DNA of 64,000 nt from NCBI GenBank assembly GCA_017560225.1, contig JAFYOJ010000191.1:3455-67454 (forward strand), read 5' to 3'. The notes below the pieces were generated by a model. That model saw only the letters and a list, made by a program, of their open reading frames with translations, did not search any database and was not told the origin of the DNA. The translations under genes and the position numbers were made by a program. The DNA comes from Clostridia bacterium. Its GTDB lineage: Bacteria > Bacillota > Clostridia > UBA1212 > UBA1255. This document shows, in pieces, positions 28,009-42,817 of this stretch (position 1 is its first letter; each line of letters begins with the position of its first letter).

Positions 28009-29265
28009 ATGAGCAAAGAAACGCTTCCAAAGGAAGATCAGAACAAGCAACCTAAGAAGATCAAGATCAAATCATACAAACTGACCGTAATGGATTATAT
28101 TACCATTGGTTTTACCGCAGTGATCGTTTTGATTATGATTTTCATTTTACTGCGCACCATCCGTCCCGACTGGTTCCAATTTATGAATCAAAGCAGTGGC
28201 CAGCCGTCGACTTCGGTAAGCAGTACACCGGCGCCGTCCACCCCGAAACTGACAGACGTGGGCAACACCTACGGAAACTTTTCCAACAATCCCTGCATCG
28301 CAGAAATTGACGATCGGTTGTATTTCGTTTCTGCGGGAGAAGATGCGACTCCTTATATTTATGTAAAGGTTGGAGAGGAAACCAAGAAATTAGTACAAAG
28401 CAATGCTTTTTGCTTGAATGCCATTTCGGATCCTTTCACCTACGCAAGTGACGCGAAGGCGTATGCGTACACCGTGTTCTTCTTGGATGCAGATGGGAAC
28501 ATCTGTTATTTCACCGATGGTCCTGTATATAGCGAAACACCTTTTACCGAAACACTCCCCGAGAAGAAAGTTTATAAAGAAGGGGACTATAAGACCATTG
28601 CAGTACGAGGCGAACTGTTGTTCTTTATTGACGGCGATGGCCACGTAGGCAAGATGTCCTTGATTGAAGAATCTTATACCGTGCTGAGCCAAGAGAGCTA
28701 CAAAGCACTTTGCGTATACGGCTCCAGTATTTTTGCCCAGCATGAGGACGGCTCCATCTATCTGTTATCTACGGTAGCGCGTCCCGCAAGTACTGCGACA
28801 CCCACTGCAGATCCGTCTGCAACACCTACCGCCACACCTTCCGCTACCGCAACTGCCACAGCAACGCCTGTGCCCGGTGTGGATGAGTACGAAACGGAAA
28901 TTCTTTCTGAAAGTGTAACCCACTTCTGCGTAGACGGTTCTTACCTTTATACTGTTTCTGACAGCGGTATCGTTCGTCGTTCCGGCGACGGCTCCATGAA
29001 AGATACGTTGAGTAAGCGGAAAGCACAATATATCAACGTATTGGACGGCAACATTTTTGTGGTTTCCGAAGGAACACTTTATGTGGGTACCGACAAGGAT
29101 TACTTAATGGGTACCGAAGTAGCCATCGGCAGCGTAACATCTTCCATCGGCATCAGCCTTGCCGAAGATGCGGTTTACGTATATGCCGGCGGATTGAAAG
29201 TTTCCACCTACGACAGTGAAACCGATGCGTACAGTGAATTGACGAAAGTGGCTTTGCCCGCATAA
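28009..29265 (+). CDS. Membrane-anchored protein with an extracytoplasmic beta-propeller-like repeat domain (DUF5050/PQQ-like).
   Basis: An N-terminal transmembrane segment (ITIGFTAVIVLIMIFILL) is followed by a Ser/Thr/Pro linker. Repeated blade-like segments occur (LYFVSAGED, ICYFTDGPVY, LLFFIDGDGHVG, YLYTVSDSGIVRR, NIFVVSEGTLYVG), plus a second Thr/Ala/Pro linker. Confidence 0.6.
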   Translation: MSKETLPKEDQNKQPKKIKIKSYKLTVMDYITIGFTAVIVLIMIFILLRTIRPDWFQFMNQSSGQPSTSVSSTPAPSTPKLTDVGNTYGNFSNNPCIAEIDDRLYFVSAGEDATPYIYVKVGEETKKLVQSNAFCLNAISDPFTYASDAKAYAYTVFFLDADGNICYFTDGPVYSETPFTETLPEKKVYKEGDYKTIAVRGELLFFIDGDGHVGKMSLIEESYTVLSQESYKALCVYGSSIFAQHEDGSIYLLSTVARPASTATPTADPSATPTATPSATATATATPVPGVDEYETEILSESVTHFCVDGSYLYTVSDSGIVRRSGDGSMKDTLSKRKAQYINVLDGNIFVVSEGTLYVGTDKDYLMGTEVAIGSVTSSIGISLAEDAVYVYAGGLKVSTYDSETDAYSELTKVALPA

Positions 29266-29293
29266 GCAGCATAAAGTTATAAACAAAGAATAC

Positions 29294-29329
29294 GGTGCCT
29301 CCCGAGAAACGGGAGACACCGTATTTTGT
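29294..29329. terminator. Bidirectional rho-independent terminator between convergent genes.
   Basis: The hairpin GGTGCCTCCCG-agaaa-CGGGAGACACC is flanked by an A-run upstream and a T-run downstream. Confidence 0.6.
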
Positions 29330-29343
29330 TTACCGCAAAACAA

Positions 29344-30273
29344 TTATAAACAATCAACAAACAGTGGCAGCATCAGAATCAGTACGAAAAGAGCAATTCC
29401 ACCAAACTGCACAAAGAAACCTGTCTTCGTAAAGCCTTTGCGACGGAATGCGATGGACAGTGCAAGGCACAAGATTGTTACGGAAGGAATGTTGTACGTA
29501 ATTTGATTCACCAGTTCCACGTCGCTTTCCACAAGGCCGAATAAGAAACAAACAATCGTGATAAACGGCACAGCCAGAAAGCCCACAAGGAAGTTCAGCA
29601 CAATGCCCACTCTATCCAATCCCCTGTACGAACAAGCCTTATCCTTGCGCACGAAAATCAAGCAAAGGACAAGGAACGCAAGAGAAATCATGACAAAGAT
29701 AAACAGATTGTCTGCTTCGTACCGAACACCCGAGAAGGAGAAACTGTTCTCAATGGGTTCTCCATAGGTAAAGTCCACAACTTTAAAACCAATGGACGCC
29801 AGAATTTCATCTTGGTTTTCTTCATTTAACGAAATGTCGTTCTTATAATCGTAATACTGGATATAGGGCGCTGCGTATGCAATATCCTCGTCGGCATAGA
29901 GATCCTCAAACAAAGGATCTCCCATAAAGTAACCGGACATCATATTAGGCTGAACAGAAAGCGACGTTTGCAGTTCCTCATTTTGGTCAATGATGTGCGG
30001 ATATTCCAAACCAGCCGGGTTATCGTACCGAACTTCCTCGTCCCAATATCGCTCATGCACACCATGAATGGTGGTAGAGCCGTCATACGTACATACGAAA
30101 ACACCTGAAAGGGTTTTGGTTTCGCCTTTGTATTCATACGTAATGGCGAAAGGGAATTCACCGGTTTCAATTGCCGGCTTTGTGGTGTAGCAACAAAATA
30201 CCGTTGCAACCGCATACGCAATCAGCGTAGCCACAAGGAAAATAATTGTAAGAGATATTTTTTTTGCTTTCAC
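29344..30273 (-). CDS. Hypothetical membrane protein with an N-terminal transmembrane segment, an extracytoplasmic domain of about 170 aa and about four C-terminal transmembrane segments.
   Basis: The start is GTG 30273 with AAGGAG 6 nt upstream. It is the last gene of the ABC/DUF1854/HAD/SdpI operon. Confidence 0.55.
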   Translation of the reverse strand: MKAKKISLTIIFLVATLIAYAVATVFCCYTTKPAIETGEFPFAITYEYKGETKTLSGVFVCTYDGSTTIHGVHERYWDEEVRYDNPAGLEYPHIIDQNEELQTSLSVQPNMMSGYFMGDPLFEDLYADEDIAYAAPYIQYYDYKNDISLNEENQDEILASIGFKVVDFTYGEPIENSFSFSGVRYEADNLFIFVMISLAFLVLCLIFVRKDKACSYRGLDRVGIVLNFLVGFLAVPFITIVCFLFGLVESDVELVNQITYNIPSVTILCLALSIAFRRKGFTKTGFFVQFGGIALFVLILMLPLFVDCL

Positions 30274-30298
30274 AATAGACTCCTTTTTATAAAAAATT

Positions 30299-30673
30299 TT
30301 ATCGTTTAGTACCATCTTCGCGAAATGTCTTTCGCAGTGCCCGTTCCGTCAACAAAACGGGGATAAACACAACAATAATTTGAACGAGCAGCAGGATCAT
30401 ACTGAGTACTTCCAACGTTTCTTCGGGGCTTTGGTAAAATGGAATGTGGGCAATCAGCGTAGGAACCGCAAGCGCCAGCCCCGTCTTCCAGCAAAATTTG
30501 CCGCAATAGGCTTGAGCAAATTTCCACGTGTCCATATTCTGCATAGAGCGAGCAGAACGATACCCCACAATGCCGTTGATTTGTTTAGGCGGATGCTTCC
30601 ACATCACGATGCCTGCAATCAACAACGTGACGGGAATCGCTAAATCGCAGAGAAATATAAACCAAAATCCCAT
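30299..30673 (-). CDS. SdpI/YhfL family membrane protein (immunity or signal-transduction type).
   Basis: The sequence MWKHPPKQINGIVGYRSARSMQNMDTWKFAQ fits the SdpI/YhfL signature (P..N..GYR..S..S...W) and has 3-4 transmembrane segments. Confidence 0.6.
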   Translation of the reverse strand: MGFWFIFLCDLAIPVTLLIAGIVMWKHPPKQINGIVGYRSARSMQNMDTWKFAQAYCGKFCWKTGLALAVPTLIAHIPFYQSPEETLEVLSMILLLVQIIVVFIPVLLTERALRKTFREDGTKR

Positions 30674-30682
30674 ATAAACTCC

Positions 30683-31519
30683 TTATCGAATCAACTCGTA
30701 TACGTCTTTAATGCTGTCGAACACGTAATCCGGTTTCTCAGATTCCGGCAAAGCGGCGATATCTGCCAGGGTCGCCTCTCCGGAGAGTACGCAAATGGAA
30801 TGGACCCCTGCATTCTTGGCGCACATAATGTCGGTGTGCAAACGGTCACCCATCACCGCAACTTCGCTGTGGTCAAGGCCCATCTTCTCCAAAACCATTT
30901 CCACCATACTGGGATTAGGCTTGCCTGCAACGAAAGATGGCTTCCGACCGGTAGCGCCTTCAATCATCAACATAAACGAACCGGCATCCGGAATAAAGCG
31001 TCCCTCTTTCATGGGACAAACCATATCCGGATGGGTTGCCCAATAAGGTACGCCGTCTGCTAAATAATCGCAGAAAACACAAAGACGGCTATATTCCAAC
31101 GTCGTATCAAAACCTAAGATTGCAAAATCTGGTCTACGGGCGGGATCCTGGGTATATTCTTCCACAATCTCAAAACCGGCTTCACGAAAAGCCGTGATCA
31201 GAGCCGGGGTCCCCAGTACCACTAAACGAGCGCCGGGCTTTACTTTGTTCAAATGGAAAATAGTGGCATTGACCGAAGTACAGAAATCGTCTTCTCCGGC
31301 AGCAATGCCTAATTTCGCTAATTTCTCCACATACGCCTGTGTATTTTTTGAAGAATTATTGGTGATATACACCGCCTTCTTCCCCTGCGCCTGCAAGGTC
31401 TCTAAGAAATCCAGCGTACCGTCGAACAAGGATGTGTCCAGATAAATGGTGCCATCCATATCCAGCAGGAAATATTTTACGCCTTTCAATGGCGTAGGAT
31501 CTTTCTGATTATGTTGCAT
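30683..31519 (-). CDS. HAD-IIA family hydrolase (NagD-like sugar-phosphatase).
   Basis: The motifs DMDGTIY, GKPNP and VMGDRLHTDI are present. The RBS is GGGAGGAGG. The start overlaps the end of the upstream ABC gene by 11 nt. Confidence 0.8.
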   Translation of the reverse strand: MQHNQKDPTPLKGVKYFLLDMDGTIYLDTSLFDGTLDFLETLQAQGKKAVYITNNSSKNTQAYVEKLAKLGIAAGEDDFCTSVNATIFHLNKVKPGARLVVLGTPALITAFREAGFEIVEEYTQDPARRPDFAILGFDTTLEYSRLCVFCDYLADGVPYWATHPDMVCPMKEGRFIPDAGSFMLMIEGATGRKPSFVAGKPNPSMVEMVLEKMGLDHSEVAVMGDRLHTDIMCAKNAGVHSICVLSGEATLADIAALPESEKPDYVFDSIKDVYELIR

Positions 31520-33692
31520 TTGATTTACCTCCTCCCATACGGGACATACTTCTTTGCGCCATCACTAAATCGTGATAAATACCTTTCTTCGCCAGCAGTT
31601 CTTCATGAGTGCCCGTTTCCGCAAGACCGCCTTTGTCCAACACAAAGATTCGTGTGGCATTCCGCAGGGTGGAAAGTCTGTGGGCAATGGCAATAGTCGT
31701 TCTGTCTTGAATTAACAACTGAAGCGCCTCTTGAATCTGTTTCTCCGTTTCCGTATCCAAAGACGCCGTAGCTTCATCCAAAATCAAAATTTTCGGATCT
31801 CGCAATAGTGCTCTTGCAATGGCAATTCGTTGCCGTTCACCGCCGGATAACGTCTGGCCTTTCTCCCCCACTCTGGTTTGATAACCCTGAGGCAGTTTAC
31901 AAATAAACTCATGGGCGCCTGCAATCTTGGCACTGCGAATAATTTCATCTCGCGTAGCCGTTGGTTTTGCATACAGCAAATTATCATACACTGTTCCTGC
32001 AAACAAGAAAGTTTCCTGCAGTACAGCACCCACTTGGGAACGGATGGATTCTTGGGAAATAGAGCGAATGTCCTTGCCGTCAATGTAAATGGCGCCTTCC
32101 GTCACGTCATATAAACGCATCACCAAGTTAATCAACGTAGATTTACCTACGCCGGAATGACCCACCAAACCAATCATCTCGCCGGGATGAATTTCAAAAG
32201 AAATATCCTTCAGCACTTCCATGGTCTTATCATAACCGAAAGAAACGTGATCAAACGTAATAGTTCCTTGAATATCCAGATCCACAGCCGCTTCCGTGTC
32301 TGCCACCTCCGGTGTTTCATCCAGCACGTCGAACAAACGAACCAATGCCGTTACAGCCCGTGCCAGTACCGTAGGAATTTGTGTAAGCCACCGAATAGGA
32401 CCATAAATAAAGGACACGTACGCCGTAAACATGGTAGCTTCACCCACGGTCATCTCGCCACCTAATATTCTCTTACCGGTATAGTACAACAAGAAATACG
32501 TACCCAGCGTCAAGGAGAAACGAATAAACGGCGATACTTTCGCCCAGAAAACCTCGTTCCGCACAGCAATCTGCCGTTCTTCGCCCGCCGCTTTTGCGTA
32601 TCGATCCGACTCCCTTGCTTCCGTGCCGTAAGACTTTACCACACGAATGCCGGAGAAAATATCAAACAATACGTTTCCCGCTCGGCTACCTGCCCGCCAT
32701 TGTTGCCCGTAGAGTTTCCGCACTTTATGATGGAAGCCACGCATAGCCGCCATAGCAATGGGCATAGGTAATACCACAATTAAAAACAGTCGCCAGTCAT
32801 AAACCAGCATCACACTGCCGATGGCAATCAGAGAAAGCAACTGACCAAATACATTGGGAATTTCATAGACAATGAAATTCTGCACATCCTGGGTATCCTG
32901 GCCTACGCGCTGAATCAATTCTCCGGCCGTTCTGCGGGAAATTTGAGAAAGAGACATCCCGTGAACTTTCGCAAAAACATCATCCCGAAGGCGTACGGAA
33001 ATCCGCACGGCCGCTTCCATAATGGTAATATTACGAAGCACGCAGACGCCCTCATTCAGCAAATTGACACCCAACATCGCCAGCAACACAGAGACAAATC
33101 CAACCGCCACCTTGCCGGGTGTGGATAGAATAAGCGATTGCATTTCTGCATTACGGATATAATCATCCACCAAAATCTTACTGACATAAGGCCCCAGCAA
33201 ACCAATGGCCGCTGTAATAAAGAAAAAGAATACGGATCCGAATAAATATTTCTTATAAGGCAAAGCCAACTGCACAAAACGAACAAATATTTTCTTTTTG
33301 TCCACGCATTTCATACAAACGCCGTCGGGCCGAGGTAATTTCGCCCCGCACTTGGGACATTTCATATTGTTCGCCGCCTGTAAATCCTCGGGAAAATCCC
33401 CATTCTTCTTATACAGATTCAACTGGCGTACCGCTTCTGCAAACAAATTGCGACATTCCATGGTGCCACGGCACAAAATCCGGGCTTTCCCCTCCAAATC
33501 GGTGTACTCTAAAGAAACACTGCCATTTTCCCCCCGCAACAAGAATGCCTGCACCTGAGAGAAAGGGAGCGTACGTACACACGCATCTTCTTCGTAGCAC
33601 ATCAAAACGTCCCGGGTCACATCCACCCGGCCATTGCAAAAGGCGCCGCTCAGGGTCAGGTTATATTGAATTTCATTCCCTGCCTTCTTCAA
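31509..33692 (-). CDS. ABC exporter half-transporter (TMD-NBD) with an N-terminal cytoplasmic PH-like domain plus CxxC...CxxC zinc-ribbon extension of about 150 aa.
   Basis: The Walker A motif GHSGVGKST, LSGGERQR and six transmembrane segments are present. The N-terminal extension contains CPKCGAKLPRPDGVCMKC. The start is TTG after AAGGAGG. Confidence 0.85.
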   Translation of the reverse strand: MKKAGNEIQYNLTLSGAFCNGRVDVTRDVLMCYEEDACVRTLPFSQVQAFLLRGENGSVSLEYTDLEGKARILCRGTMECRNLFAEAVRQLNLYKKNGDFPEDLQAANNMKCPKCGAKLPRPDGVCMKCVDKKKIFVRFVQLALPYKKYLFGSVFFFFITAAIGLLGPYVSKILVDDYIRNAEMQSLILSTPGKVAVGFVSVLLAMLGVNLLNEGVCVLRNITIMEAAVRISVRLRDDVFAKVHGMSLSQISRRTAGELIQRVGQDTQDVQNFIVYEIPNVFGQLLSLIAIGSVMLVYDWRLFLIVVLPMPIAMAAMRGFHHKVRKLYGQQWRAGSRAGNVLFDIFSGIRVVKSYGTEARESDRYAKAAGEERQIAVRNEVFWAKVSPFIRFSLTLGTYFLLYYTGKRILGGEMTVGEATMFTAYVSFIYGPIRWLTQIPTVLARAVTALVRLFDVLDETPEVADTEAAVDLDIQGTITFDHVSFGYDKTMEVLKDISFEIHPGEMIGLVGHSGVGKSTLINLVMRLYDVTEGAIYIDGKDIRSISQESIRSQVGAVLQETFLFAGTVYDNLLYAKPTATRDEIIRSAKIAGAHEFICKLPQGYQTRVGEKGQTLSGGERQRIAIARALLRDPKILILDEATASLDTETEKQIQEALQLLIQDRTTIAIAHRLSTLRNATRIFVLDKGGLAETGTHEELLAKKGIYHDLVMAQRSMSRMGGGKSNAT

Positions 33693-33704
33693 GACGCAGC
33701 CTCC

Positions 33705-34223
33705 TTACAAATACAATTCCAAGTGGCGATAACTTCTATGGGGAAGTGCATCCACACTCTTAATTTCATACACATTGCCGTCCACATCATAAATCAACAA
33801 ATGATCGGACGTGATTTTGGTAATGGCACGGTAGGTATCCTGCACAGAGAACGTTTTCTTGCCGCTTGCCAGCGTCACTTCCCAGTGAGTGAAGCCGTAC
33901 CGCTCTTTAATCTTCTCAATGGACAAAATCTCCCGGGTAAAATATTTTCTTGCCAACTCCAATCGGCACGCCTCCCGGCTTTCTTCCGAAAGATCCTGCA
34001 AATCCCGAATCATGCCCAATTCTTTCAAATCACAATCGGTAACGGAAATATGGGTTTCCGGTTCATCAAAGGGAAAGCACCGACTGAGCAGTACCCGATC
34101 ATAATGGGTGCCGTCCAAATCCATAGACAAGAAACCCTCTTCCTCTTTGAAAGAAGCATTTGCTTGATTCAGCCAAATTAAATCCACAATACCGGACAAT
34201 CCGTCTTTCTTCTGCTCGTTCAT
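33705..34223 (-). CDS. DUF1854-like protein (tentative), encoded between the two ABC half-transporter genes.
   Basis: The 172-aa soluble protein is sandwiched between two ABC genes with 4-12 nt gaps, the typical DUF1854 context. The RBS is GGAGGAG. The family assignment comes from context and size, not from a search. Confidence 0.45.
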   Translation of the reverse strand: MNEQKKDGLSGIVDLIWLNQANASFKEEEGFLSMDLDGTHYDRVLLSRCFPFDEPETHISVTDCDLKELGMIRDLQDLSEESREACRLELARKYFTREILSIEKIKERYGFTHWEVTLASGKKTFSVQDTYRAITKITSDHLLIYDVDGNVYEIKSVDALPHRSYRHLELYL

Positions 34224-34227
34224 CTGC

Positions 34228-36441
34228 TTACTCCTCCACACCGATATTCTTCAATGCACTTAACTGCAGTTGATATAACCGGTAATAAATTCCTTTTTGC
34301 TTCAAAAGCTCTACGTGGGTGCCTGTTTCCGGCATTTTACCCTTCTCAATGACAATCAAACTATCTGCATTCCGCAAGGTGGAAAGCCGGTGGGCAATCA
34401 TAATCGTGGTACGATTCTCCGAAAGCCGCTCCAGCGCCTCCTGAATGGTTCGCTCTGTAGCCGTATCCATGGCCGCCGTTGCCTCATCCAAAATCAAAAT
34501 CTTGGGATTCTTCAAAATAGCGCGGGCAATGGAAACGCGTTGCCGCTCACCGCCGGACAAATCCTGATATCCAAAGCCAATCTTGGTCTGGTACCCATTG
34601 GGCAGTCGCATAATAAAATCATGGGCACCGGCAATACGCGCCGCATGAATCACGTCTTCTTTGGACGCTTCCGGATTGGCATAGGCAATATTCTCCAGCA
34701 CCGTACCGGCAAACAAATACGTCTCTTGGGATACAATGGAAACACAGCGTCTTAAATCCTCAAAGGCCATATCCTTAACATTCATGCCGTCAATATAAAT
34801 GCCGCCGGAATCTACGTCGTACAGACGAATCAAGAGGTTGGCCAAAGTGCTTTTCCCCGCACCGGAATGTCCCACAATACCCAAACTGTGTCCCGCCTCA
34901 ATCTTGAAAGAAATTCCCTCCAACGTCTTTCGACCTTTCTCATAGGAGAAATCCACGTTCCGAAATTCTACTTCGCCTCGAATTTCAGGCATCGCCACAG
35001 GATGCTCCGACTCCAGCACATCGGGAGAGGCATCTGCAATTTCAAACAACCGTTGCATACCGTTCACACAGCGGGTAAAAGCATCGGACATATTCACAAA
35101 ACTGAACATGGGTCCGTTTAAAATGCCTACGTAAGAAATAAATACCATCAGCGTACCGTATGTAATCTGCCCTTTCATGGCCATCCAACCGCCTACACTC
35201 CACACAATGAGGGTAGAGAGATAAATCAGCAAATTTAATCCGGGGAAGCGGGTATTGTGATAATAGGTGATTTTCTTGGTCATCTCCGACGCTTGCTCGG
35301 AATAGTGATTGAAGCGGTGGGTTTCCTCCTTCTCTCTGGCAAAGGCCTTAACCACGCGAACGCCGTTCAAAGAATCGGACAGCACACTGTTCATAGACCG
35401 ATTGCGTGCGTAGCTTCTGGCGTGCAGCCACCGTTGGTGTTTGATTACGCGCGCTACGGCATACAGGTAAAATGGCAGCGGAAGGAGAGACACGATTGCC
35501 AGCGGTATGTCAATGGCCATCATCAAAATGAATACCGCCACCACTTGAATAATGCTGGAGAAGAACGTGGGGAAACCGTTGACAAAGAACCAATAAATCC
35601 CGTTGGAGTCACTGTTGATCTGTGTCATTAAACCGCCGGTCTGCCGGCCTGTAAAGAAGCGCATGGACAGACGGCGAATACTGTCGAAAATGGTACACTT
35701 TAAATCATAAATAATCTTGGCCGATACTTTGGCCGTAATAATATCACTGAACATAGTAAGCAAGATGGTAACGATTTGTGTCGTCAGCATCAAGGTCACT
35801 ACAAACAAAAGGTCACCGTAGAAGGTACCTCGAATATCCAACACCTGATCATAGAAGAAAGACGTGGATAAATAAGGAGATACAATGCCCAGTACACTGG
35901 TAATGGCCATAGCCGCTAAAGCAAGCGCAATCTGGCCCTTGAATTTCTTGGCCAATGTTAAGAATCGACCCACGATACTGGCTTTATCCATACAATCCGG
36001 ACATACTTTTCGGTTGGGGTCCGGATATCGGCGATGACATTTCGGGCAGAATTGTTCCTGCCGAAAGTCTTTCTCGTCTACCGTAATTTCCCCTTTATCC
36101 ATCTGCATATGGAGATACTTCACAAACAGTCTGCATTCTTGTTTGCGACTGTTGGTCATCGTGGCCAACACCCGTTTCTTTCCTTGGTATTCTGCCACCA
36201 AAGCACAGGTACCGATTTTCTCCTCGATGGTCGGCTTTTGCAAGTCCGTCAATGCATAGGTTTTGGTTTGTTTGCCATCCGAAATGAACAAGTTTTCTTT
36301 CGTAGCAACCAGCACAGTTTCCTGCTCGTCATAGCGCGCATTCAAATCCGCCAGAGCAAACAGTACAATATCCTCCGGGTTCAATGCTAAAGTATTTATA
36401 ATTTTCTCTGCACCTTCCGTGCGCTGGGATAACGTTAGCAT
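34228..36441 (-). CDS. ABC exporter half-transporter paralogue with the same N-terminal PH-like plus zinc-ribbon extension. It is the likely heterodimer partner.
   Basis: The Walker A motif GHSGAGKST and LSGGERQR are present. The N-terminal extension contains CPKCHRRYPDPNRKVCPDC. The start was chosen at ATG 36441 (MLTLSQ). The alternative ATG at 36501 cannot be excluded. Confidence 0.8.
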   Translation of the reverse strand: MLTLSQRTEGAEKIINTLALNPEDIVLFALADLNARYDEQETVLVATKENLFISDGKQTKTYALTDLQKPTIEEKIGTCALVAEYQGKKRVLATMTNSRKQECRLFVKYLHMQMDKGEITVDEKDFRQEQFCPKCHRRYPDPNRKVCPDCMDKASIVGRFLTLAKKFKGQIALALAAMAITSVLGIVSPYLSTSFFYDQVLDIRGTFYGDLLFVVTLMLTTQIVTILLTMFSDIITAKVSAKIIYDLKCTIFDSIRRLSMRFFTGRQTGGLMTQINSDSNGIYWFFVNGFPTFFSSIIQVVAVFILMMAIDIPLAIVSLLPLPFYLYAVARVIKHQRWLHARSYARNRSMNSVLSDSLNGVRVVKAFAREKEETHRFNHYSEQASEMTKKITYYHNTRFPGLNLLIYLSTLIVWSVGGWMAMKGQITYGTLMVFISYVGILNGPMFSFVNMSDAFTRCVNGMQRLFEIADASPDVLESEHPVAMPEIRGEVEFRNVDFSYEKGRKTLEGISFKIEAGHSLGIVGHSGAGKSTLANLLIRLYDVDSGGIYIDGMNVKDMAFEDLRRCVSIVSQETYLFAGTVLENIAYANPEASKEDVIHAARIAGAHDFIMRLPNGYQTKIGFGYQDLSGGERQRVSIARAILKNPKILILDEATAAMDTATERTIQEALERLSENRTTIMIAHRLSTLRNADSLIVIEKGKMPETGTHVELLKQKGIYYRLYQLQLSALKNIGVEE

Positions 36442-36460
36442 CCTTCCATTCTTTCCTTCT

Positions 36461-36937
36461 TTATTCTTCAGCAATCCGGCTGTACGTAATGGACAGCACA
36501 ATGCCTTCTTCGTCTACCAAAAACGTAAGTGCGGTGTCTTGCTTAACATAAGTCATCTGACCTTGTTCTTCCGTAAAGTCCGCGCCATACGTTTCTATAA
36601 CTTTCTCACGCCCGTCGCCAATAGAAACACCTTCCTCTGTTCCAACCGCATTGCTGCGAAGAACAATGGTGGTAATTTCTTCTCCATCACCCTTTTGCGC
36701 AGTTATAACAAAAAAGTGGGCATACAGATATTGGACAAGGTGTGCGTCCTCGGCAATTCGATTTTCATAGGCGCCAAAAACGTCTTGTGCATCCCCAAAA
36801 GCAGTGCCAATCCGCACACCTTGGAATGCATAATAAGGACTTTCTTCCGGGGTGCCGGTCCGTTCCTGGCATCCACTAAAAAAACACATAGTGCATAGCA
36901 ACAGAATCGTGCAAATCACCATCTTCCCTTTGCCCAT
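36461..36937 (-). CDS. Hypothetical lipoprotein.
   Basis: The N-terminus MGKGKMVICTILLLCTMCFFSGC has a lipobox. The RBS is AAAGGAGGG. The upstream in-frame extension in the track (to 37072) is not supported. Confidence 0.6.
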   Translation of the reverse strand: MGKGKMVICTILLLCTMCFFSGCQERTGTPEESPYYAFQGVRIGTAFGDAQDVFGAYENRIAEDAHLVQYLYAHFFVITAQKGDGEEITTIVLRSNAVGTEEGVSIGDGREKVIETYGADFTEEQGQMTYVKQDTALTFLVDEEGIVLSITYSRIAEE

Positions 36938-36973
36938 AAAAACCCTCCTTTGCCCATAAAAACACACATTGTT

Positions 36974-37002
36974 ATGATAATTTATTTCCCTCATACTGTC
37001 AA
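36974..37002 (-). promoter_or_regulatory. Sigma-A-type promoter for the lipoprotein/ABC operon.
   Basis: The minus strand reads TTGACA, a 17-nt spacer, then TATCAT. Confidence 0.45.
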
Positions 37003-37030
37003 GAAATATTGATAGAAGCTGTCCTATTAC

Positions 37031-37060
37031 ACCATAAAAAAATGGATGCCCGGCATCCAT
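37031..37060 (-). terminator. Rho-independent terminator of the feoAB operon.
   Basis: A 9-bp stem AATGGATGC-ccg-GCATCCATT is followed on the minus strand by TTTTTTATGG. Confidence 0.6.
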
Positions 37061-37071
37061 TTTCCAAACCA

Positions 37072-37218
37072 CTATCGTTTACATTTACAAGAAGCACAAT
37101 CCTTTGCGTGAGGACAACCGATGCATTTTACCCCACGCCGTTTAGAACGAATGACGTAGAACAACGCACCCCCTACAATCAACAGCACAATGCCGATCAC
37201 CGCTATCGTTTCCCACAT
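37072..37218 (-). CDS. FeoB-associated Cys-rich membrane protein (48 aa).
   Basis: The ORF is below the ORF-track size cutoff. The product MWETIAVIGIVLLIVGGALFYVIRSKRRGVKCIGCPHAKDCASCKCKR has one transmembrane segment and a Cys-rich tail. The RBS GGAGGG lies 8 nt upstream, inside the feoB 3' end. The gene starts 3 nt after the feoB stop. Confidence 0.7.
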   Translation of the reverse strand: MWETIAVIGIVLLIVGGALFYVIRSKRRGVKCIGCPHAKDCASCKCKR

Positions 37219-37221
37219 AAG

Positions 37222-39156
37222 TTATCCCTCCTTCGCAAACTTACGAGAAGCACGGATGCACAAAGCCGCCACAATTCCCCAAATGACCAATACGCCGATC
37301 AAGCCGGGCACAAAACCTACACCCACGTGACCGTGGCCCACCAACGTACCAATCTGATACGCCAGGAAACCCACTGTGTAGCCCACGCCCAATTGAAGAC
37401 CGATGCCGCCCAAAAGCCAGCGGGTACTCTTCATCTCGGCTCTCATAGCGCCGATAGCCGCAAAGCACGGCGGTGTAAATAAATTCAGCATTAAAAATGC
37501 AAGGGCTGCCGCTCTGCCGATGCCAAGCGTACCCGCATCCAGATTCGCCACCGCAAAGCAAACTGCCAAGGTGCCCACCACATTCTCTTTTGCAATAAAG
37601 CCTGTAATGGTCGCCGCCGCCATTTGCCAGGACAACACACCTAATACCGGCACCAGCACGTAGGCAAAAGGTGCCGCCACAGAAGCCAGAATCGAGGCAT
37701 CCGCCGTCTCTGCTACGCCGAAACTCCACGTGAACGACTGCATCACCTGCACCACCGTATTGCACAGTAAGATAATGGTCGCCGCCTTTACAATAAAGGA
37801 CCATCCGCGGCTGCACATGGACTGAGTCGCCCGCCACAAACTGGGCATTTTATACTCCGGAAGTTCAATAATAAAGAAAGATTTCTTGGCATCATAGCCC
37901 GTAATCTTATTGATAATCAATGCGCAGAAATAAATAATGACGATAGCTGCGAAATACATCAAAGGACCTACCCAAGAAGCCTTTTTGAAGAATGCGCCCG
38001 CAATCAGCGCAATCACCGGCAATTTCGCACCGCAAGGCATAAAGGGCGCCAGCATCGCCGTGGCACGTCGCTCCCGCTCATTCCGAATGGTACGGCACGC
38101 CATAACACCGGGCACCGCGCAGCCGGTACCGATAACAAAGGCAATGACCGACTTACCGGAAAGTCCGATTTTCTTAAAAATAGGATCCAGCACCACAGAC
38201 ACGCGAGCCATATAGCCGCAATCCTCCAGCAGTGCAATCAAGAAGTACATCACCATCACTAAAGGCAAGAAGCCCAGCACTGCAATCGCACCACCCAGCA
38301 CGCCATCAATCAATAAGGCATATACAATTTCCGGTACGTTTTGGAAGAAGGAACCTACCCACTCTTGGAACGCTTCCAGCACGGCCGTCAAACCGTCTGC
38401 AATCCACACGCCGGGCCCCGCCTGGGAAATCCAGAACACCAAGAACATCACAAGGGCGAAAATGGGAATACCAGCCCAATGATTGGTCAGCACCCGGTCA
38501 ATCTTATCTTGGAAATTACGCTGGCGGGTAAAAACTTTTCTGCTTTCCACACGCTTCACAATTTCATTGACAAATGCAAAGCGTCGCTTGTCAGCCGCCA
38601 CCACTTGTGCCTTGTTGGACAAATCGACAGCCCCTTGATCAAAAGGTGCCTTCTGGGTCGTTCCCCGAAGCGCCATCGCTTGCGCCACAACGGCCTTCAA
38701 ACCCTCGTTGGAAGTGGAAACTGTTTCCAGCACAGGACACCCCAAAGCTACCGATAACTGCGCAAGATCAATATGGGTGTCTTTCTTCTCGTTAATATCC
38801 GCTTTATTTAAAGCCACCACCATGGGAATCCCCAACTCCAACAACTGAGTGGTAAAGAACAAACTTCTGGACAAATTGGTGGCGTCCACAATGTTAATCA
38901 TCACGTCGGGACGTTCATTTTGAATATAGGTACTGGTAACACTTTCTTCGGAGGTGAAAGGAGACATAGAGTATGCACCGGGAAGATCCACGGCTACAAT
39001 CCGTTCATCCAGACCGGTATAACTTTTCTTAATGGCACTTTCCTTCTTCTCTACCGTAACACCGGCCCAGTTGCCCACCTTCTCATTCCGACCGGTGAGG
39101 GCATTATACATGGTCGTCTTACCGCTATTGGGATTGCCCGCCAAAGCAATTCTCAT
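37222..39156 (-). CDS. feoB: Ferrous iron transporter FeoB.
   Basis: The N-terminal G-domain reads MRIALAGNPNSGKTTMYNALTG, followed by a polytopic membrane domain. The RBS is AAAGGAG. Confidence 0.95.
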   Translation of the reverse strand: MRIALAGNPNSGKTTMYNALTGRNEKVGNWAGVTVEKKESAIKKSYTGLDERIVAVDLPGAYSMSPFTSEESVTSTYIQNERPDVMINIVDATNLSRSLFFTTQLLELGIPMVVALNKADINEKKDTHIDLAQLSVALGCPVLETVSTSNEGLKAVVAQAMALRGTTQKAPFDQGAVDLSNKAQVVAADKRRFAFVNEIVKRVESRKVFTRQRNFQDKIDRVLTNHWAGIPIFALVMFLVFWISQAGPGVWIADGLTAVLEAFQEWVGSFFQNVPEIVYALLIDGVLGGAIAVLGFLPLVMVMYFLIALLEDCGYMARVSVVLDPIFKKIGLSGKSVIAFVIGTGCAVPGVMACRTIRNERERRATAMLAPFMPCGAKLPVIALIAGAFFKKASWVGPLMYFAAIVIIYFCALIINKITGYDAKKSFFIIELPEYKMPSLWRATQSMCSRGWSFIVKAATIILLCNTVVQVMQSFTWSFGVAETADASILASVAAPFAYVLVPVLGVLSWQMAAATITGFIAKENVVGTLAVCFAVANLDAGTLGIGRAAALAFLMLNLFTPPCFAAIGAMRAEMKSTRWLLGGIGLQLGVGYTVGFLAYQIGTLVGHGHVGVGFVPGLIGVLVIWGIVAALCIRASRKFAKEG

Positions 39157-39181
39157 GAAACCTTGCTCCTTTAAAAATCTC

Positions 39182-39397
39182 TTATTCCACTATCATCAAG
39201 GCAGCCAATTGATTATCAATACTGTATCGGCCATCTTTAATGGAAACCACGCAGCTACCTCTTAAATGGGCAATGACCGTAATGGGCTCTCCTACGTAGC
39301 ATCCTAAAGAAAAAAGGAATGCATCCAATTCATCATCCCGGGTATGCATTTCCCGGATGATATATTCTCTGCCTTCCTCTGCCTGTAATAATGTCAT
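39182..39397 (-). CDS. feoA: FeoA family protein.
   Basis: The 71-aa SH3-like protein (GREYIIREMHT...) lies immediately upstream of feoB. Confidence 0.85.
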   Translation of the reverse strand: MTLLQAEEGREYIIREMHTRDDELDAFLFSLGCYVGEPITVIAHLRGSCVVSIKDGRYSIDNQLAALMIVE

Positions 39398-40306: not shown

Positions 40307-42817
40307 TCAGAAGGACCAGGTGGAGAACCAGCGAAGTCCGTCAATATAGGCTTCTTTCACAGGAATTCCCACCATCACCGGATAGAACAGAACATACAAA
40401 ACCAAAACCAGAAGCAAGTATCCTCCGATCACCCAACGGTTAATCACTTTGTCTTCATACAGACATTTAATCACGTATACAATCATCAAAATCAGGAACG
40501 GTACAGCGGTAAAATAGTGATAAATAAACGTACACCGGGTTACCAAAATCCAGGGGAACAACTGACAAGCGTATCCAAGGAATACAACCAGCATCATTTT
40601 CTCTTTTCGTTTCCAAGCAAAGTACAAAGCCGGAATGATACAAGCAAGACCGGTCCACCAAATGGCCGGATTACCCATGGAAACAACAGATGCCCGGATG
40701 CCGGCAGGAAGCCCGGCAGAAGCGCTGGAATAATAGTAAATAGGACGGCCATCTATAATCCAGGAATACCAAGAAGACTGGTAGGAATGGGTTGCATTCA
40801 AATTCGCATGATAGTTATACATATACTCCTGATTATCCAGCACAATTTCAATCAAGGACTTATCCGGATTGGAGGCCATATACGGAATATAGGACAAAAC
40901 GTAAATAGTCAGCGGAATAATCACAAAGAAGACCACGCACATCAAGCAAGTGGGAATGAAATTCCCCACGAACCAGGACTTCTTACCGGCAGGAATTTTA
41001 TACCGACCGGAGGACACATCCATACTTTCTGCAATCTTCGCCATAAAGAACAGTACCGCAAGACCGACGCCCGCATAAATACTGGTCCATTTTGCCGCCG
41101 CACCCAAACCGAAGCACAGACCGGAAAGGCCCAAAGAAACCATCCCTTTCCAGAAAGGACGGTCGTAAGACCGCTGGGAGAAATAATCGTACATAAAGTA
41201 GTACATCAGCAAAATAAAGAATACGGAATACGTATCAATAGTCGCCAATCTGGTTTGTGTCGTCCGCATAAAGTCGGTCATCAGCAGGAAAGCCGCAATA
41301 AACGCATAACCCCGCTTCTTAAATAACTTAAATGCAAGCAGATACATAATGGGCACCAAGCATACGCCCAAAAGCGTACCCATAAAACGCCAACCAAACG
41401 GATTCATGCCGAACAGGGAAATACCAATGGAAATAATGGTCTTTCCAAGAGGCGGATGGGTCACTTCATAGATGGGCAGGCCATTCATATGCTCATAGGC
41501 CGTTCTGGGGAAGTAAATTTCATCAAAATACGTACCGTTCTCGAACGTCCGGTAAGCCTGTGCCAGATCCTGTTCGTCAAAGAGCTTGTCCGGCGTATGG
41601 GGATTGGTTTCATCCGTACTGTACGTTTCCACCACAGTTACGGGCACAAGGGTATAGTTGCCTTCTGCATCTTTCTCCCAGAAAGCCATTTCATTCAGGC
41701 CCAAACCTCTTACTTTCACCGTTACACGAACACGTTTCGTGGTAAAGGTCACGTTCTTCAAATGCCATTCAAAGAAAGCGATATCATCTCGATCAAAGGA
41801 AAATGCTTCTTGATATTCGCCCGAGGCGTTTTCATAAGCAACTTCATAGGCCGCATTGCTGGTATTGGGCACGTTGGGATTCAACGTCACACGGGAAATC
41901 TTGGTTTCCTCCGGGAACTCTACAATAACGTATTCACCGGAAGCAACCGGTTTCCAATGGGAGCTAACACCTTCCGCATTTCCCAACTTATAGAAAGAGG
42001 TACACGCACATACCAATGTGAGCACCGCCAGCACGATATAATCTTTCTTATCCAGGCGCGCCCGGGGCTCCGAAAGAGATTTGCCCAACGCAACCTTCTC
42101 ATCATCGTGGCGCATAATGGTGGCCATTACGTACATCACAAGACCCACCACCAAAACAATAAACAAGGCTTGGAAATACCAGGGCGTATCACTGCCGGCT
42201 TCTTTCTTCTGCGTCTGATAGGATTCAACGGAGAAAGGCTCTACGCCACCGGGCACCTTAGATACTTTCTCAATTTGAACGTCGTCAATATAAACAATAC
42301 CGGCAGACTCATTGCTGTAACCGCCAAGGCCAAAACTCAGTTCCAAAGAAGTTTGTTTGGCTCCGGTGGTAAAATAAGCCGTCTGTTGTTGCCATTTGCC
42401 GTCAGTGGTATAAAGGGCTTCAGAGTGACCAAAGGTTTCAATGGCAGAAATATTAAAACCATTTCCGCCCACCAGGGTTCCCTCAATCTTAACCATGGCA
42501 GTTACCTTGTAGGTACTGTTCTTCTTGACAGCCAGTTTCTGATAAATACGAGCATCATTGGCAGAATTGCTGGCAATTTTCACCGCCTGGCCGGAGTAAC
42601 CGTCTGCCACCAAAGAAATCGTGGTGCAAGCGGTGTCCCCTACATCCTTTTGGTAATTGCGCTGACTCCACTGGGTAATCTTAGTGCCACTTCCTTGCTC
42701 AAAATCCCCATTTGCCAATGCTTGATTGCCGCTACAGCCCACCAACGTGACCAGCGTCATCAAGATTATGAGTATAAAGAGTCCTGCTTTCTTATTCAAA
42801 CAAAGAAATTTCTTCAT
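40307..42817 (-). CDS. Membrane GT-C glycosyltransferase of the PMT/GT39-like (phospholipid-carrier-dependent) family with an N-terminal extracytoplasmic carbohydrate-binding-like domain.
   Basis: A lipoprotein-type signal peptide (MKKFLCLNKKAGLFILIILMTLVTLVGC) is followed by a CBM4/9-like jelly-roll of about 180 aa and a multi-transmembrane core (YFDEIYFPRTAYEHMNGLPIYEVTHPPLGK, a PMT-like loop). The start is ATG 42817 after GGAGGAAG. It overlaps the upstream gene by 26 nt. Confidence 0.7.
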   Translation of the reverse strand: MKKFLCLNKKAGLFILIILMTLVTLVGCSGNQALANGDFEQGSGTKITQWSQRNYQKDVGDTACTTISLVADGYSGQAVKIASNSANDARIYQKLAVKKNSTYKVTAMVKIEGTLVGGNGFNISAIETFGHSEALYTTDGKWQQQTAYFTTGAKQTSLELSFGLGGYSNESAGIVYIDDVQIEKVSKVPGGVEPFSVESYQTQKKEAGSDTPWYFQALFIVLVVGLVMYVMATIMRHDDEKVALGKSLSEPRARLDKKDYIVLAVLTLVCACTSFYKLGNAEGVSSHWKPVASGEYVIVEFPEETKISRVTLNPNVPNTSNAAYEVAYENASGEYQEAFSFDRDDIAFFEWHLKNVTFTTKRVRVTVKVRGLGLNEMAFWEKDAEGNYTLVPVTVVETYSTDETNPHTPDKLFDEQDLAQAYRTFENGTYFDEIYFPRTAYEHMNGLPIYEVTHPPLGKTIISIGISLFGMNPFGWRFMGTLLGVCLVPIMYLLAFKLFKKRGYAFIAAFLLMTDFMRTTQTRLATIDTYSVFFILLMYYFMYDYFSQRSYDRPFWKGMVSLGLSGLCFGLGAAAKWTSIYAGVGLAVLFFMAKIAESMDVSSGRYKIPAGKKSWFVGNFIPTCLMCVVFFVIIPLTIYVLSYIPYMASNPDKSLIEIVLDNQEYMYNYHANLNATHSYQSSWYSWIIDGRPIYYYSSASAGLPAGIRASVVSMGNPAIWWTGLACIIPALYFAWKRKEKMMLVVFLGYACQLFPWILVTRCTFIYHYFTAVPFLILMIVYVIKCLYEDKVINRWVIGGYLLLVLVLYVLFYPVMVGIPVKEAYIDGLRWFSTWSF

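What the first reader, a model, noticed from the sequence alone, without database searches (positions are those of the whole stretch)
29344..37002. Seven-gene operon: lipoprotein, two ABC half-transporters with PH-like/zinc-ribbon N-domains flanking a DUF1854-like gene, HAD-IIA phosphatase, SdpI/YhfL protein and a further membrane protein
From a TTGACA-17-TATCAT promoter at about 37000 the genes run with gaps of 20 nt or less, or with overlaps:
- lipoprotein
- ABC half-transporter
- 172-aa soluble protein in the canonical DUF1854 position between two ABC genes
- second ABC half-transporter
- HAD-IIA (NagD-like) phosphatase (11-nt overlap)
- SdpI/YhfL-family membrane protein
- membrane protein with a large extracytoplasmic loop

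The run ends at a bidirectional terminator at 29294-29329.

Both ABC proteins carry an unusual N-terminal cytoplasmic extension of about 150 aa. A beta-rich PH-like segment is followed by a C-P-K-C...C-x-x-C zinc-ribbon (CPKCGAKLPRPDGVCMKC and CPKCHRRYPDPNRKVCPDC), ahead of the six-transmembrane exporter core.

SdpI-family proteins are immunity or sensor components for secreted toxic peptides. Their linkage to a heterodimeric exporter suggests an export/immunity or envelope-stress module. The substrate is not obvious, as no precursor peptide gene was found.
Basis: partly seen in the sequence, partly recalled or inferred. Interest (0 to 1): 0.62.

Follow-up and report, generated by a model that had tools for sequence, protein, structure and literature searches.

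The report
DUF1854-type heterodimeric ABC exporter operon
The seven genes are there as described, but only three of them (two ABC exporter halves with PH-like and zinc-ribbon heads around a DUF1854 protein) form a conserved module, widespread in gut Clostridia and of unknown cargo; the SdpI gene behind the "immunity" idea is a species-specific add-on.

Summary
Seven tightly packed minus-strand genes run from a strong promoter (37002-36974) to a strong terminator (29325-29289). Profile searches confirm DUF1854, SdpI-family and HAD-IIA. A confident structure model shows that the ABC N-extension is a PH-like domain followed by a four-cysteine ribbon.

The interpretation needs revising:
- **Conserved unit.** It is only ABC1-DUF1854-ABC2. 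This triad is complete, in that order, in 67 of 80 Clostridia genome loci; 12 others are cut by contig ends.
- **N-extension.** It is the family hallmark, not an oddity. It also occurs in the betaproteobacterial ABC+DUF1854 pair beside cyanophycin synthetase genes (NCBIfam NF052233/NF052234).
- **Fusion proteins.** Four database proteins fuse DUF1854 to the C-terminus of the ABC protein, so it is probably a cytoplasmic transporter subunit.
- **Lipoprotein and HAD.** They accompany the triad only in the closest relatives.
- **SdpI and the last membrane gene.** They lie in a 1.4-kb segment absent from syntenic relatives, so the export/immunity reading has no comparative support.

No cphA was found in the window or in any Clostridia locus. 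The cargo remains unknown.

Verdict: an ordinary member of a sequence-annotated but functionally uncharacterised transporter family, in its heterodimeric Clostridial form. Moderate interest.

The parts
36974..37002 (-). Sigma-70-type promoter TTGACA-17-TATCAT
   Evidence: Best promoter-like match in 29000-37300, 11 of 12 positions. The block TTTCTTGACAGTA..GAAATAAATTATCATAA is invariant in L008, L001 and L007 while the flanks diverge. Nucleotide homology to L008 begins at 37009.
36461..36937 (-). 158-aa probable lipoprotein with no known domain; an accessory gene at clade level
   Evidence: Signal peptide with an FSGC lipobox read by eye, and one hydrophobic segment at the N-terminus, about residues 6-24. 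No Pfam or NCBIfam family. Homologues (40-56% identity) occur only in the five closest loci.
34228..36441 (-). ABC1: 737-aa ABCB-type half-transporter with an N-terminal PH-like domain (residues 1-116), a four-cysteine ribbon (C132, C135, C147, C150), then the transmembrane and nucleotide-binding domains
33705..34223 (-). 172-aa soluble DUF1854 protein, inferred to be a cytoplasmic subunit of the transporter
31509..33692 (-). ABC2: 727-aa paralogous half-transporter with the same PH-like and zinc-ribbon N-domain (CPKCGAKLPRPDGVCMKC)
   Evidence: PF00664 and PF00005. NF052233 scores 538 bits, below its cutoff. Its N-domain is homologous to that of ABC1 (29% identity, E 6e-11). ABC2-type orthologues always lie downstream of DUF1854. 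Canonical ATPase motifs.
30683..31519 (-). 278-aa HAD-IIA phosphatase overlapping the end of ABC2 by 11 nt; an accessory gene at clade level
   Evidence: PF13344 and PF13242. TIGR01460 HAD-SF-IIA scores 142 bits, above its cutoff of 100. Present next to the triad only in L001-L003 and L008 (88-90% identity), absent from the other loci.
30299..30673 (-). 124-aa SdpI/YfhL-family membrane protein, part of a species-specific 1.4-kb insertion
   Evidence: PF13630, 60.9 bits, above its cutoff of 28.2. Found with the operon only on same-species metagenome contigs L087-L090. Absent from L008, L001 and the 80 genome loci.
29344..30273 (-). 309-aa (or 323-aa from ATG at 30315) membrane protein: N-terminal transmembrane segment, extracytoplasmic domain of about 160 aa, about four C-terminal transmembrane segments; part of the same insertion
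   Evidence: No Pfam or NCBIfam hit. Hydropathy profile. GTG start behind AAAGGAG; called as 309 aa on L087-L089. Homologues L092 and L093 lie in unrelated contexts.
29289..29325 (.). Strong hairpin terminator shared with the convergent DUF5050-like gene
   Evidence: 16-bp stem followed by a T-run. Folds at -35.4 kcal/mol (z -9.1) on the minus strand and -30.3 kcal/mol (z -7.7) on the plus strand.

Best explanation
The functional core is a three-gene module. ABC1 and ABC2 are paralogous ABCB-type half-transporters that assemble into a heterodimeric ATP-driven exporter with two catalytically competent ATP sites (inferred). Each half carries, on the cytoplasmic side just before the first transmembrane helix, a PH-like domain followed by a four-cysteine zinc ribbon. 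The gene between them encodes a soluble DUF1854 protein that works as a cytoplasmic subunit docked at the nucleotide-binding or N-terminal domains. This is inferred from strict gene adjacency and from natural ABC-DUF1854 fusion proteins.

The module is the Clostridial, heterodimeric version of the single ABC+DUF1854 pair found in Betaproteobacteria. There it sits beside cphA/cphA' and is cofit with them in transposon screens, which led to the proposal that it exports an amino-acid polymer.

Most likely mechanism (inferred, not shown): the PH-like domains, whose fold is that of peptide-binding PTB and FERM-F3 domains, together with DUF1854 capture or gate a cytoplasmically made, probably peptide-like or polymeric cargo and pass it to the exporter cavity.

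In this lineage the triad is transcribed from a conserved promoter together with a small lipoprotein and a HAD-IIA phosphatase, both clade-specific companions. In this species alone, a 1.4-kb insertion adds an SdpI/YfhL-family protein and a 309-aa membrane protein to the 3' end. These last two are passengers, not parts of the conserved machine.
For: Shown here:
- Family assignments.
- The triad is complete and in the order ABC1-type, DUF1854, ABC2-type in 67 of 80 genome loci. Twelve are cut by contig ends and one (L082) has no detected upstream ABC gene.
- No other flanking gene family occurs in more than 9 of the 86 loci analysed.
- The cysteine motifs are conserved in both paralogues.
- The N-domain is PH-like.
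- The N-domain profile finds 803 representative clusters, always at the N-terminus; the full-length proteins among them are mostly about 730-820 aa, and many hits are fragments.
- Four proteins have the architecture N-domain, transmembrane domain, nucleotide-binding domain, DUF1854.
- In Ralstonia, cphA and cphA' lie divergent from an ABC gene (NF052233, 1455 bits) and DUF1854 (NF052234, 233 bits). That ABC protein has the same N-domain architecture (hhalign probability 92%, CPTC..CPQC).
- ATPase motifs are canonical in all 74 ABC1 orthologues checked and in at least 70 of the 74 ABC2 orthologues.
- The insertion boundaries and the conserved promoter are mapped.

From the literature: DUF1854 is cofit with cphA/cphA' and the ABC gene, and an export role was proposed (bioRxiv 10.1101/072470).
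Against: - No cphA-like gene is in the 64-kb window or within 10 kb of the triad in any Clostridia locus, nor next to the Gemmatirosa copy. The cyanophycin-like cargo is therefore only an analogy.
- Both ABC proteins and DUF1854 score below the NCBIfam equivalog cutoffs.
- The DUF1854 fold has no informative structural relative.
- DUF1854 shows no detectable homology to the N-domain.
- No complex model, Zn measurement, transcript data or substrate data exist.
- A C-terminal fusion position is equally what a regulatory domain would show.
Confidence: 0.55

Rival explanations
1. The transporter is a general drug or lipid efflux pump. DUF1854 and the PH-like/zinc-ribbon domains are regulatory modules that sense a cytoplasmic ligand or membrane state and throttle ATPase activity, as the C-terminal regulatory domains of MalK, MetN and ModC do in importers. 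They would not be cargo adaptors.
For: - The closest solved relatives of the core are multidrug or lipid exporters: ABCB1, TM287/288, Sav1866, TmrAB and MsbA.
- DUF1854 is fused after the nucleotide-binding domain in some homologues. That is where ABC regulatory domains sit (established knowledge).
- Genomic context is variable, with no conserved biosynthetic partner in Clostridia.
Against: - Cofitness with cphA/cphA' in Betaproteobacteria argues for a dedicated substrate there.
- The strongly conserved RYPD..RK surface within the ABC1 ribbon suggests a specific protein contact rather than a simple structural zinc site.
Confidence: 0.25
2. This is an envelope-biogenesis operon. The exporter moves a phosphorylated or lipid-linked envelope precursor. 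The HAD-IIA phosphatase processes it in the cytoplasm, and the lipoprotein and downstream membrane proteins act on it outside the cell.
For: - HAD overlaps ABC2 by 11 nt, which suggests translational coupling.
- HAD is more conserved (88-90% identity) than the ABC genes in the closest relatives.
- The lipoprotein, triad and HAD share one conserved promoter.
Against: - HAD and the lipoprotein are absent from the triad's neighbourhood in all loci beyond the five closest.
- HAD-IIA enzymes are generic sugar-phosphate or nucleotide phosphatases (family-level knowledge).
- SdpI and the 309-aa protein are a species-level insertion.
Confidence: 0.1
3. The heterodimeric exporter secretes a toxic or signalling peptide, and the SdpI-family protein provides immunity or sensing, giving an export/immunity or envelope-stress module.
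For: - The SdpI-family hit is genuine (PF13630).
- The gene is tightly packed behind HAD, with a 9-nt gap and its own ribosome-binding site but no strong promoter-like match just upstream, so it is probably co-transcribed in this species.
Against: - SdpI and the last membrane gene are absent from syntenic relatives and from all 80 Clostridia loci.
- There is no precursor ORF, no SdpR or SdpC-like gene and no C39 peptidase domain.
- The protein is a short YfhL-like family member of 124 aa. By recalled knowledge, not checked here, B. subtilis SdpI is about 207 aa.
- Homologues of the 309-aa protein occur without SdpI or the ABC genes.
Confidence: 0.07

Closest known systems
Cyanophycin-metabolism-associated ABC transporter plus DUF1854 protein (NCBIfam NF052233 and NF052234; Betaproteobacteria; Price et al., bioRxiv 10.1101/072470)
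   Same: - Same domain architecture: PH-like region, CxxC..CxxC ribbon, transmembrane domain, nucleotide-binding domain.
- The DUF1854 gene lies immediately downstream of the ABC gene.
- These are the best NCBIfam hits over the full length.
   Different: - Here two diverged paralogous ABC genes flank DUF1854 (heterodimer), instead of one ABC gene (homodimer).
- Scores fall below the equivalog cutoffs: 556 and 538 against 880, and 74 against 150.
- No cphA lies nearby.
Heterodimeric bacterial ABCB-type exporters with solved structures (TM287/288, TmrAB) and Sav1866
   Same: Same type IV exporter core from about residue 158 to the C-terminus (E 1e-93 to 1e-108).
   Different: - Those proteins lack any N-terminal PH-like or zinc-ribbon domain and have no DUF1854 partner.
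- TM287/288 and TmrAB have one degenerate ATP site (established knowledge), whereas both sites are canonical here.
HlyB-type and PCAT-type exporters with an N-terminal cytoplasmic C39 or C39-like domain (comparison from established knowledge)
   Same: An extra cytoplasmic domain is fused N-terminally to an ABCB-type half-transporter. In those systems it binds the cargo before export, which makes them a working analogy for the PH-like domain.
   Different: No C39 or C39-like domain is present here. The fold is PH-like. No membrane-fusion or outer-membrane partners are present.
Bacillus subtilis SdpI / YfhL (Pfam PF13630)
   Same: The 124-aa protein matches the family profile above the gathering score.
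   Different: - There is no sdpR and no sdpABC-like gene.
- The protein is a short, YfhL-like form.
- The gene is a species-specific insertion, so an immunity role is not implied.
HAD-IIA phosphatases (TIGR01460; NagD/YutF-like)
   Same: Passes the HAD-IIA subfamily cutoff. Hydrolase_6 and Hydrolase_like domains are present.
   Different: Falls below the equivalog cutoffs for NagD (PRK10444, 124 against 368) and TIGR01457 (147 against 248). The substrate is unknown.

Membership tests
DUF1854 (Pfam PF08909) | Profile match above the gathering score | tested here: met
   112.6 bits against 26.8, E 1.5e-32, covering 128 of 130 profile positions.
Cyanophycin-metabolism-associated DUF1854 protein (NF052234, equivalog) | Score at or above the curated cutoff of 150 bits | tested here: not met
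   73.7 bits. The Ralstonia control scores 232.6.
Cyanophycin-metabolism-associated ABC transporter (NF052233, equivalog) | Score at or above the curated cutoff of 880 bits | tested here: not met
   ABC1 scores 555.9 and ABC2 537.5 bits, although aligned over nearly the full model. The Ralstonia control scores 1455.
Cyanophycin-metabolism-associated ABC transporter (NF052233, equivalog) | Genomic association with cyanophycin synthetase genes (cphA/cphA') | tested here: not met
   tblastn with both Ralstonia CphA proteins finds nothing in the window or in 90 Clostridia loci. The rest of the genome could not be examined.
DUF1854-associated ABC exporter (architecture class) | N-terminal PH-like domain plus a CxxC..CxxC ribbon before the transmembrane domain, with DUF1854 encoded adjacent or fused | tested here: met
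ABCB-type (type IV fold) ABC exporter | ABC_membrane plus ABC_tran domains with Walker A, signature, Walker B with Glu, and H-loop | tested here: met
   PF00664 and PF00005 in both proteins. Motifs GxxGxGKS, LSGGE, ILILDE and AHR in both.
Zinc ribbon | Two CxxC knuckles that bind Zn | tested here: inconclusive
   The four cysteines are invariant across orthologues. The Pfam Zn_Ribbon_1 and DZR hits are sub-threshold (E 0.027 and 0.089). Metal binding cannot be tested with these tools.
SdpI/YfhL family (PF13630) | Profile match above the gathering score | tested here: met
   60.9 bits against 28.2.
SdpI immunity/signalling system (B. subtilis sdpRI-sdpABC) | Adjacent SdpR (ArsR-type) regulator and an SdpC-like toxin locus | tested here: not met
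   None of the seven genes or their immediate neighbours has such domains. The gene is absent in relatives.
HAD-IIA subfamily (TIGR01460) | Score at or above 100.15 bits | tested here: met
   142.3 bits.
Peptide-cleavage/export ABC transporters (PCAT, TIGR01193) | N-terminal C39 peptidase domain; score at or above 523.85 bits | tested here: not met
   308 and 303 bits, aligned to the core only from about residue 131-174. No C39 Pfam hit.
Bacterial lipoprotein | Signal peptide with a lipobox cysteine | tested here: inconclusive
   The MVICTILLLCTMCFFSGC motif fits the PROSITE-type pattern by eye, with a hydrophobic segment at about residues 6-24. No dedicated predictor was run. The relatives carry a less canonical ..GWGC.
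Single operon | One transcript from the promoter at 37002 to the terminator at 29289 | not testable with these tools
   Consistent with the spacing, one strong promoter and flanking hairpins. RNA-seq is needed.

The most novel reading that the evidence does not exclude
The PH-like/zinc-ribbon N-domains together with DUF1854 form a previously undescribed cytoplasmic cargo-capture apparatus for ABC exporters. With it, gut Clostridia and several Gram-negative phyla would export a cytoplasmically synthesised polymer, cyanophycin-like or another peptide-like product, to the cell surface. This would be a new route of polymer secretion.
Probability: 0.2. Interest if true: 0.65.

Novelty: new variant of a known kind. 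Interest (0 to 1): 0.38.

Why it matters
DUF1854-linked ABC exporters occur in at least 540 of the scanned species genomes (a lower bound) and in several phyla, yet they have no biochemical or structural characterisation. The only functional clue is transposon cofitness with cyanophycin-synthetase-like genes in two Betaproteobacteria.

This analysis defines the family's hallmark: a PH-like domain plus a zinc ribbon fused before the transmembrane domain, and DUF1854 encoded adjacent or fused after the nucleotide-binding domain. It also shows that gut Clostridia carry a heterodimeric form that is not linked to cphA. Together these give a concrete target for structural and genetic work on how cytoplasmic accessory domains feed or control an ABC exporter.

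It also warns against reading function from the SdpI neighbour, which is incidental.

Tried and rejected
1. **Sequence search of solved structures.** Searching the PDB with DUF1854 and with the N-domain gave nothing significant.
2. **Word-indexed homologue searches.** The N-domain gave only 2 and then 10 hits, all contig-end fragments. These served as the alignment for the structure model. The exhaustive profile search was needed for breadth.
3. **First genome scan.** A 10-sequence alignment worked.
4. **DUF1854 as a relative of the ABC N-domain.** Rejected: BLASTP E 0.62 and hhalign probability 0.2%.
6. **cphA near the triad in Clostridia.** None found.
7. **A conserved partner gene in the flanks.** None found in more than 9 of the 86 loci analysed.
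8. **A conserved SdpI plus 309-aa protein pair elsewhere.** Only two distant homologues of the 309-aa protein turned up, neither with SdpI nor the ABC genes.
9. **AFDB Foldseek search.** The library was not available.
10. **Source names for homologues.** None, or only 'hypothetical protein'.
11. **Literature.** Only one paper in the held library mentions DUF1854 or PF08909. Nothing was found on PH-like or zinc-ribbon ABC exporters.
Full report
**Observation**

The minus strand between 37002 and 29289 carries seven closely spaced ORFs.

| Gene | Coordinates | Note |
|---|---|---|
| 158-aa probable lipoprotein | 36937-36461 | |
| ABC1 | 36441-34228 | 737 aa |
| DUF1854 protein | 34223-33705 | 172 aa |
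| ABC2 | 33692-31509 | 727 aa; TTG start behind AAGGAGG |
| HAD-family protein | 31519-30683 | overlaps ABC2 by 11 nt |
| 124-aa membrane protein | 30673-30299 | |
| last membrane protein | 30273-29344 | 309 aa |

- The last gene most likely starts at the GTG at 30273, which follows an AAAGGAG ribosome-binding site. Same-species contigs are called the same way. The alternative is the ATG at 30315, which gives 323 aa.
- TTGACA-17-TATCAT at 37002-36974 is the best promoter-like site in the region, matching 11 of 12 positions.
- Only one strong terminator-like hairpin follows the last gene, at 29325-29289. It folds at -35.4 kcal/mol (z -9.1) on the minus strand and -30.3 kcal/mol (z -7.7) on the plus strand.
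- Upstream lies a feoA-feoB cluster with a FeoB-associated small ORF. It ends in a hairpin with a U-run at about 37065-37037. That hairpin is weak on energy alone (-14.6 kcal/mol, z -1.8).

**Family assignments**

| Protein | Result |
|---|---|
| 172-aa protein | DUF1854 (PF08909), E 1.5e-32 |
| 124-aa protein | SdpI/YfhL family (PF13630), 60.9 bits against 28.2 |
| 278-aa protein | Hydrolase_6 and Hydrolase_like; passes HAD-IIA subfamily TIGR01460, 142 against 100 bits |
| ABC1 and ABC2 | ABC_membrane plus ABC_tran |
| Lipoprotein and last membrane protein | no family match |

**What the N-extensions are**

- The two N-terminal regions are homologous to each other (29% identity, E 6e-11).
- An AlphaFold2 model of ABC1 residues 1-172 is confident (pLDDT 87.5). 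It was built on an alignment of the window sequences and database fragments.
- The model shows a short helix, seven strands and a long capping helix.
- The following CPKC...CPDC motif is invariant in 22 diverse ABC1 orthologues, together with R138, Y139, D141 and R144.
- An equivalent CxxC...CxxC motif is present in almost all ABC2 orthologues.
- No solved structure covers this region.
- The core from about residue 158 is a standard ABCB-type exporter, closest to ABCB1, TM287/288, Sav1866 and TmrAB.
- Walker A, LSGGE, Walker B with Glu, and the H-loop are canonical in both halves. The same holds for all 74 ABC1 orthologues checked and for at least 70 of the 74 ABC2 orthologues. Both ATP sites should therefore be active.

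**What is conserved**

The best 80 are almost all gut or rumen Clostridia genomes assembled from metagenomes.

- In 67 of these 80 loci the order is ABC1-type, DUF1854, ABC2-type on one strand.
- Twelve loci are cut by contig ends, and one has no detected upstream ABC gene.
- Clustering the flanking ORFs found no other gene family in more than 9 of the 86 loci analysed.
- The lipoprotein (40-56% identity) and the HAD gene (88-90% identity) accompany the triad only in the five closest loci: L001-L003, L007 and L008.
- The SdpI-family gene and the last membrane gene are absent from every one of these loci. They occur only on same-species metagenome contigs with 99.6% nucleotide identity.
- Nucleotide alignment with L008 and L001 shows where homology runs. 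With L008 it starts at the promoter (window 37009), and with both it stops at or just before the HAD stop codon (30679 for L008). It resumes at the stop of the convergent DUF5050-like gene (29267 for L008).
- The 1.41 kb holding the SdpI gene, the 309-aa gene and the terminator therefore replaces about 107 nt in L008.
- The promoter block is invariant in four relatives while its flanks diverge.
- Homologues of the 309-aa protein sit in unrelated contexts, without SdpI or the ABC genes.

**Relation to known systems**

- Both ABC proteins hit NCBIfam NF052233, 'cyanophycin metabolism-associated ABC transporter', best and over nearly the whole model, N-domain included. The scores (556 and 538 bits) fall below the cutoff of 880.
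- DUF1854 hits NF052234 below its cutoff, at 74 against 150 bits.
- A true member was examined on a Ralstonia megaplasmid. There, cphA and cphA' lie divergent from one ABC gene (1455 bits) followed by DUF1854 (233 bits).
- That ABC protein has the same N-terminal architecture, including CPTC..CPQC (hhalign probability 92%).
- The only paper in the held library that mentions DUF1854 reports cofitness of DUF1854, the ABC gene and cphA/cphA' in Acidovorax and Cupriavidus. [quoted passage not shown]
- In contrast, no cphA-like sequence exists in the 64-kb window or within 10 kb of the triad in any Clostridia locus. None lies beside the single ABC+DUF1854 pair of Gemmatirosa either.
- An exhaustive profile search with the N-domain finds 803 representative clusters, 300 of them at E no higher than 1e-10. 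The domain is always N-terminal, and the full-length proteins among the hits are mostly about 730-820 aa.
- Four longer hits (935-1013 aa) have the architecture N-domain, transmembrane domain, nucleotide-binding domain, DUF1854. These fusions argue that DUF1854 is a physically associated cytoplasmic subunit.

**DUF1854 itself**

- The AlphaFold2 model has pLDDT 86 and pTM 0.60. It shows two beta-rich halves, each followed by a helix.
- DUF1854 shows no detectable homology to the ABC N-domain.
- Its most conserved motifs are FPF, ExGxI and DVDGN.

**Interpretation**

- The best-supported reading is a self-contained heterodimeric exporter module with cytoplasmic accessory parts.
- It is the Clostridial variant of the DUF1854-associated ABC family.
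- Its cargo is unknown. The proposal that the PH-like domains and DUF1854 capture or gate a peptide-like or polymeric cytoplasmic cargo is an inference. It rests on the fold class, the fusions and the betaproteobacterial genetics.
- A regulatory role for these domains on an otherwise general pump is the main rival.
- The lipoprotein and HAD phosphatase are probably co-transcribed companions at clade level.
- The SdpI-family and 309-aa proteins are a species-level insertion. The export/immunity reading is therefore not supported, although those two genes are probably co-transcribed in this species.

**Novelty and score**

- The family is already represented in Pfam and NCBIfam and was flagged in one functional-genomics study, so this is not a new kind of system.
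- In the literature I could search, the heterodimeric cphA-unlinked Clostridial form is not described. Nor is the explicit PH-like plus zinc-ribbon definition of the N-domain.
- I rate the finding a new variant of a known kind, of moderate interest (0.38).

Noticed in passing
window 37071-39397 (minus strand): A feoA (39397-39182), feoB (39156-37222) and 48-aa Cys-rich ORF (37217-37071) cluster lies directly upstream and ends in a hairpin with a U-run. The small ORF hits PF12669 (FeoB-associated), E 3.7e-5, just below the gathering score. The close relatives have pgi at this position instead, so the operon's upstream neighbour is not conserved.
   Followed up: partly
window 29268-30678 versus L008 13539-13645: A 1.41-kb segment (SdpI-family gene, 309-aa membrane gene and terminator) replaces about 107 nt in the closest syntenic relative. 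Its GC content (0.44-0.47) is unremarkable, and no repeats or mobile-element genes were looked for at the junctions.
   Followed up: partly
window 36926-36960 (minus strand): The 14-nt string TTTATGGGCAAAGG occurs twice, 21 nt apart, spanning the ribosome-binding site and start codon of the lipoprotein gene. The first copy opens a 12-codon out-of-frame mini-ORF. Its significance is unknown.
   Followed up: no
P0095, P0112, P0114, P0123 (database proteins): These are natural fusion proteins with the architecture PH-like/zinc-ribbon N-domain, transmembrane domain, nucleotide-binding domain, DUF1854 (935-1013 aa).
   Followed up: yes
window 33705-34223 (DUF1854 residues 146-153, 50-52, 68-72): The motifs DVDGN[RV][YF]E, FPF and ExGxI are nearly invariant across DUF1854 proteins down to 28% identity. 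The DVDGN loop loosely resembles acidic metal-binding loops. Its function is unknown.
   Followed up: no
L094 (Gemmatirosa kalamazoonensis plasmid 1, NZ_CP007129.1, 878736-899161): A single ABC gene followed by DUF1854, with no cphA-like gene within 10 kb. The cphA linkage is therefore not universal outside Firmicutes either.
   Followed up: partly
window 28009-29265 (plus strand): A convergent 418-aa protein with an N-terminal transmembrane segment, a DUF5050-like beta-propeller region and a Thr/Pro/Ala-rich linker. It is syntenic in the relatives and shares the bidirectional terminator.
   Followed up: no
window 40307-45625 (minus strand): An 860-aa PMT-family (protein O-mannosyltransferase-like) membrane glycosyltransferase (40307-42889) lies downstream of a 704-aa protein (42792-44906) with only a weak Alg6/Alg8-like hit. 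A 240-aa ORF (44903-45625) has a sub-threshold bactofilin hit. This may be a surface-glycosylation cluster.
   Followed up: no
L005, L024, L025, L062 (ABC1 orthologues of 919-945 aa): Some ABC1 orthologues carry about 190 extra N-terminal residues or long insertions within the PH-like domain; P0027 likewise has an insert of about 50 aa rich in Lys and Glu. The PH-like domain seems to tolerate large loop insertions.
   Followed up: no
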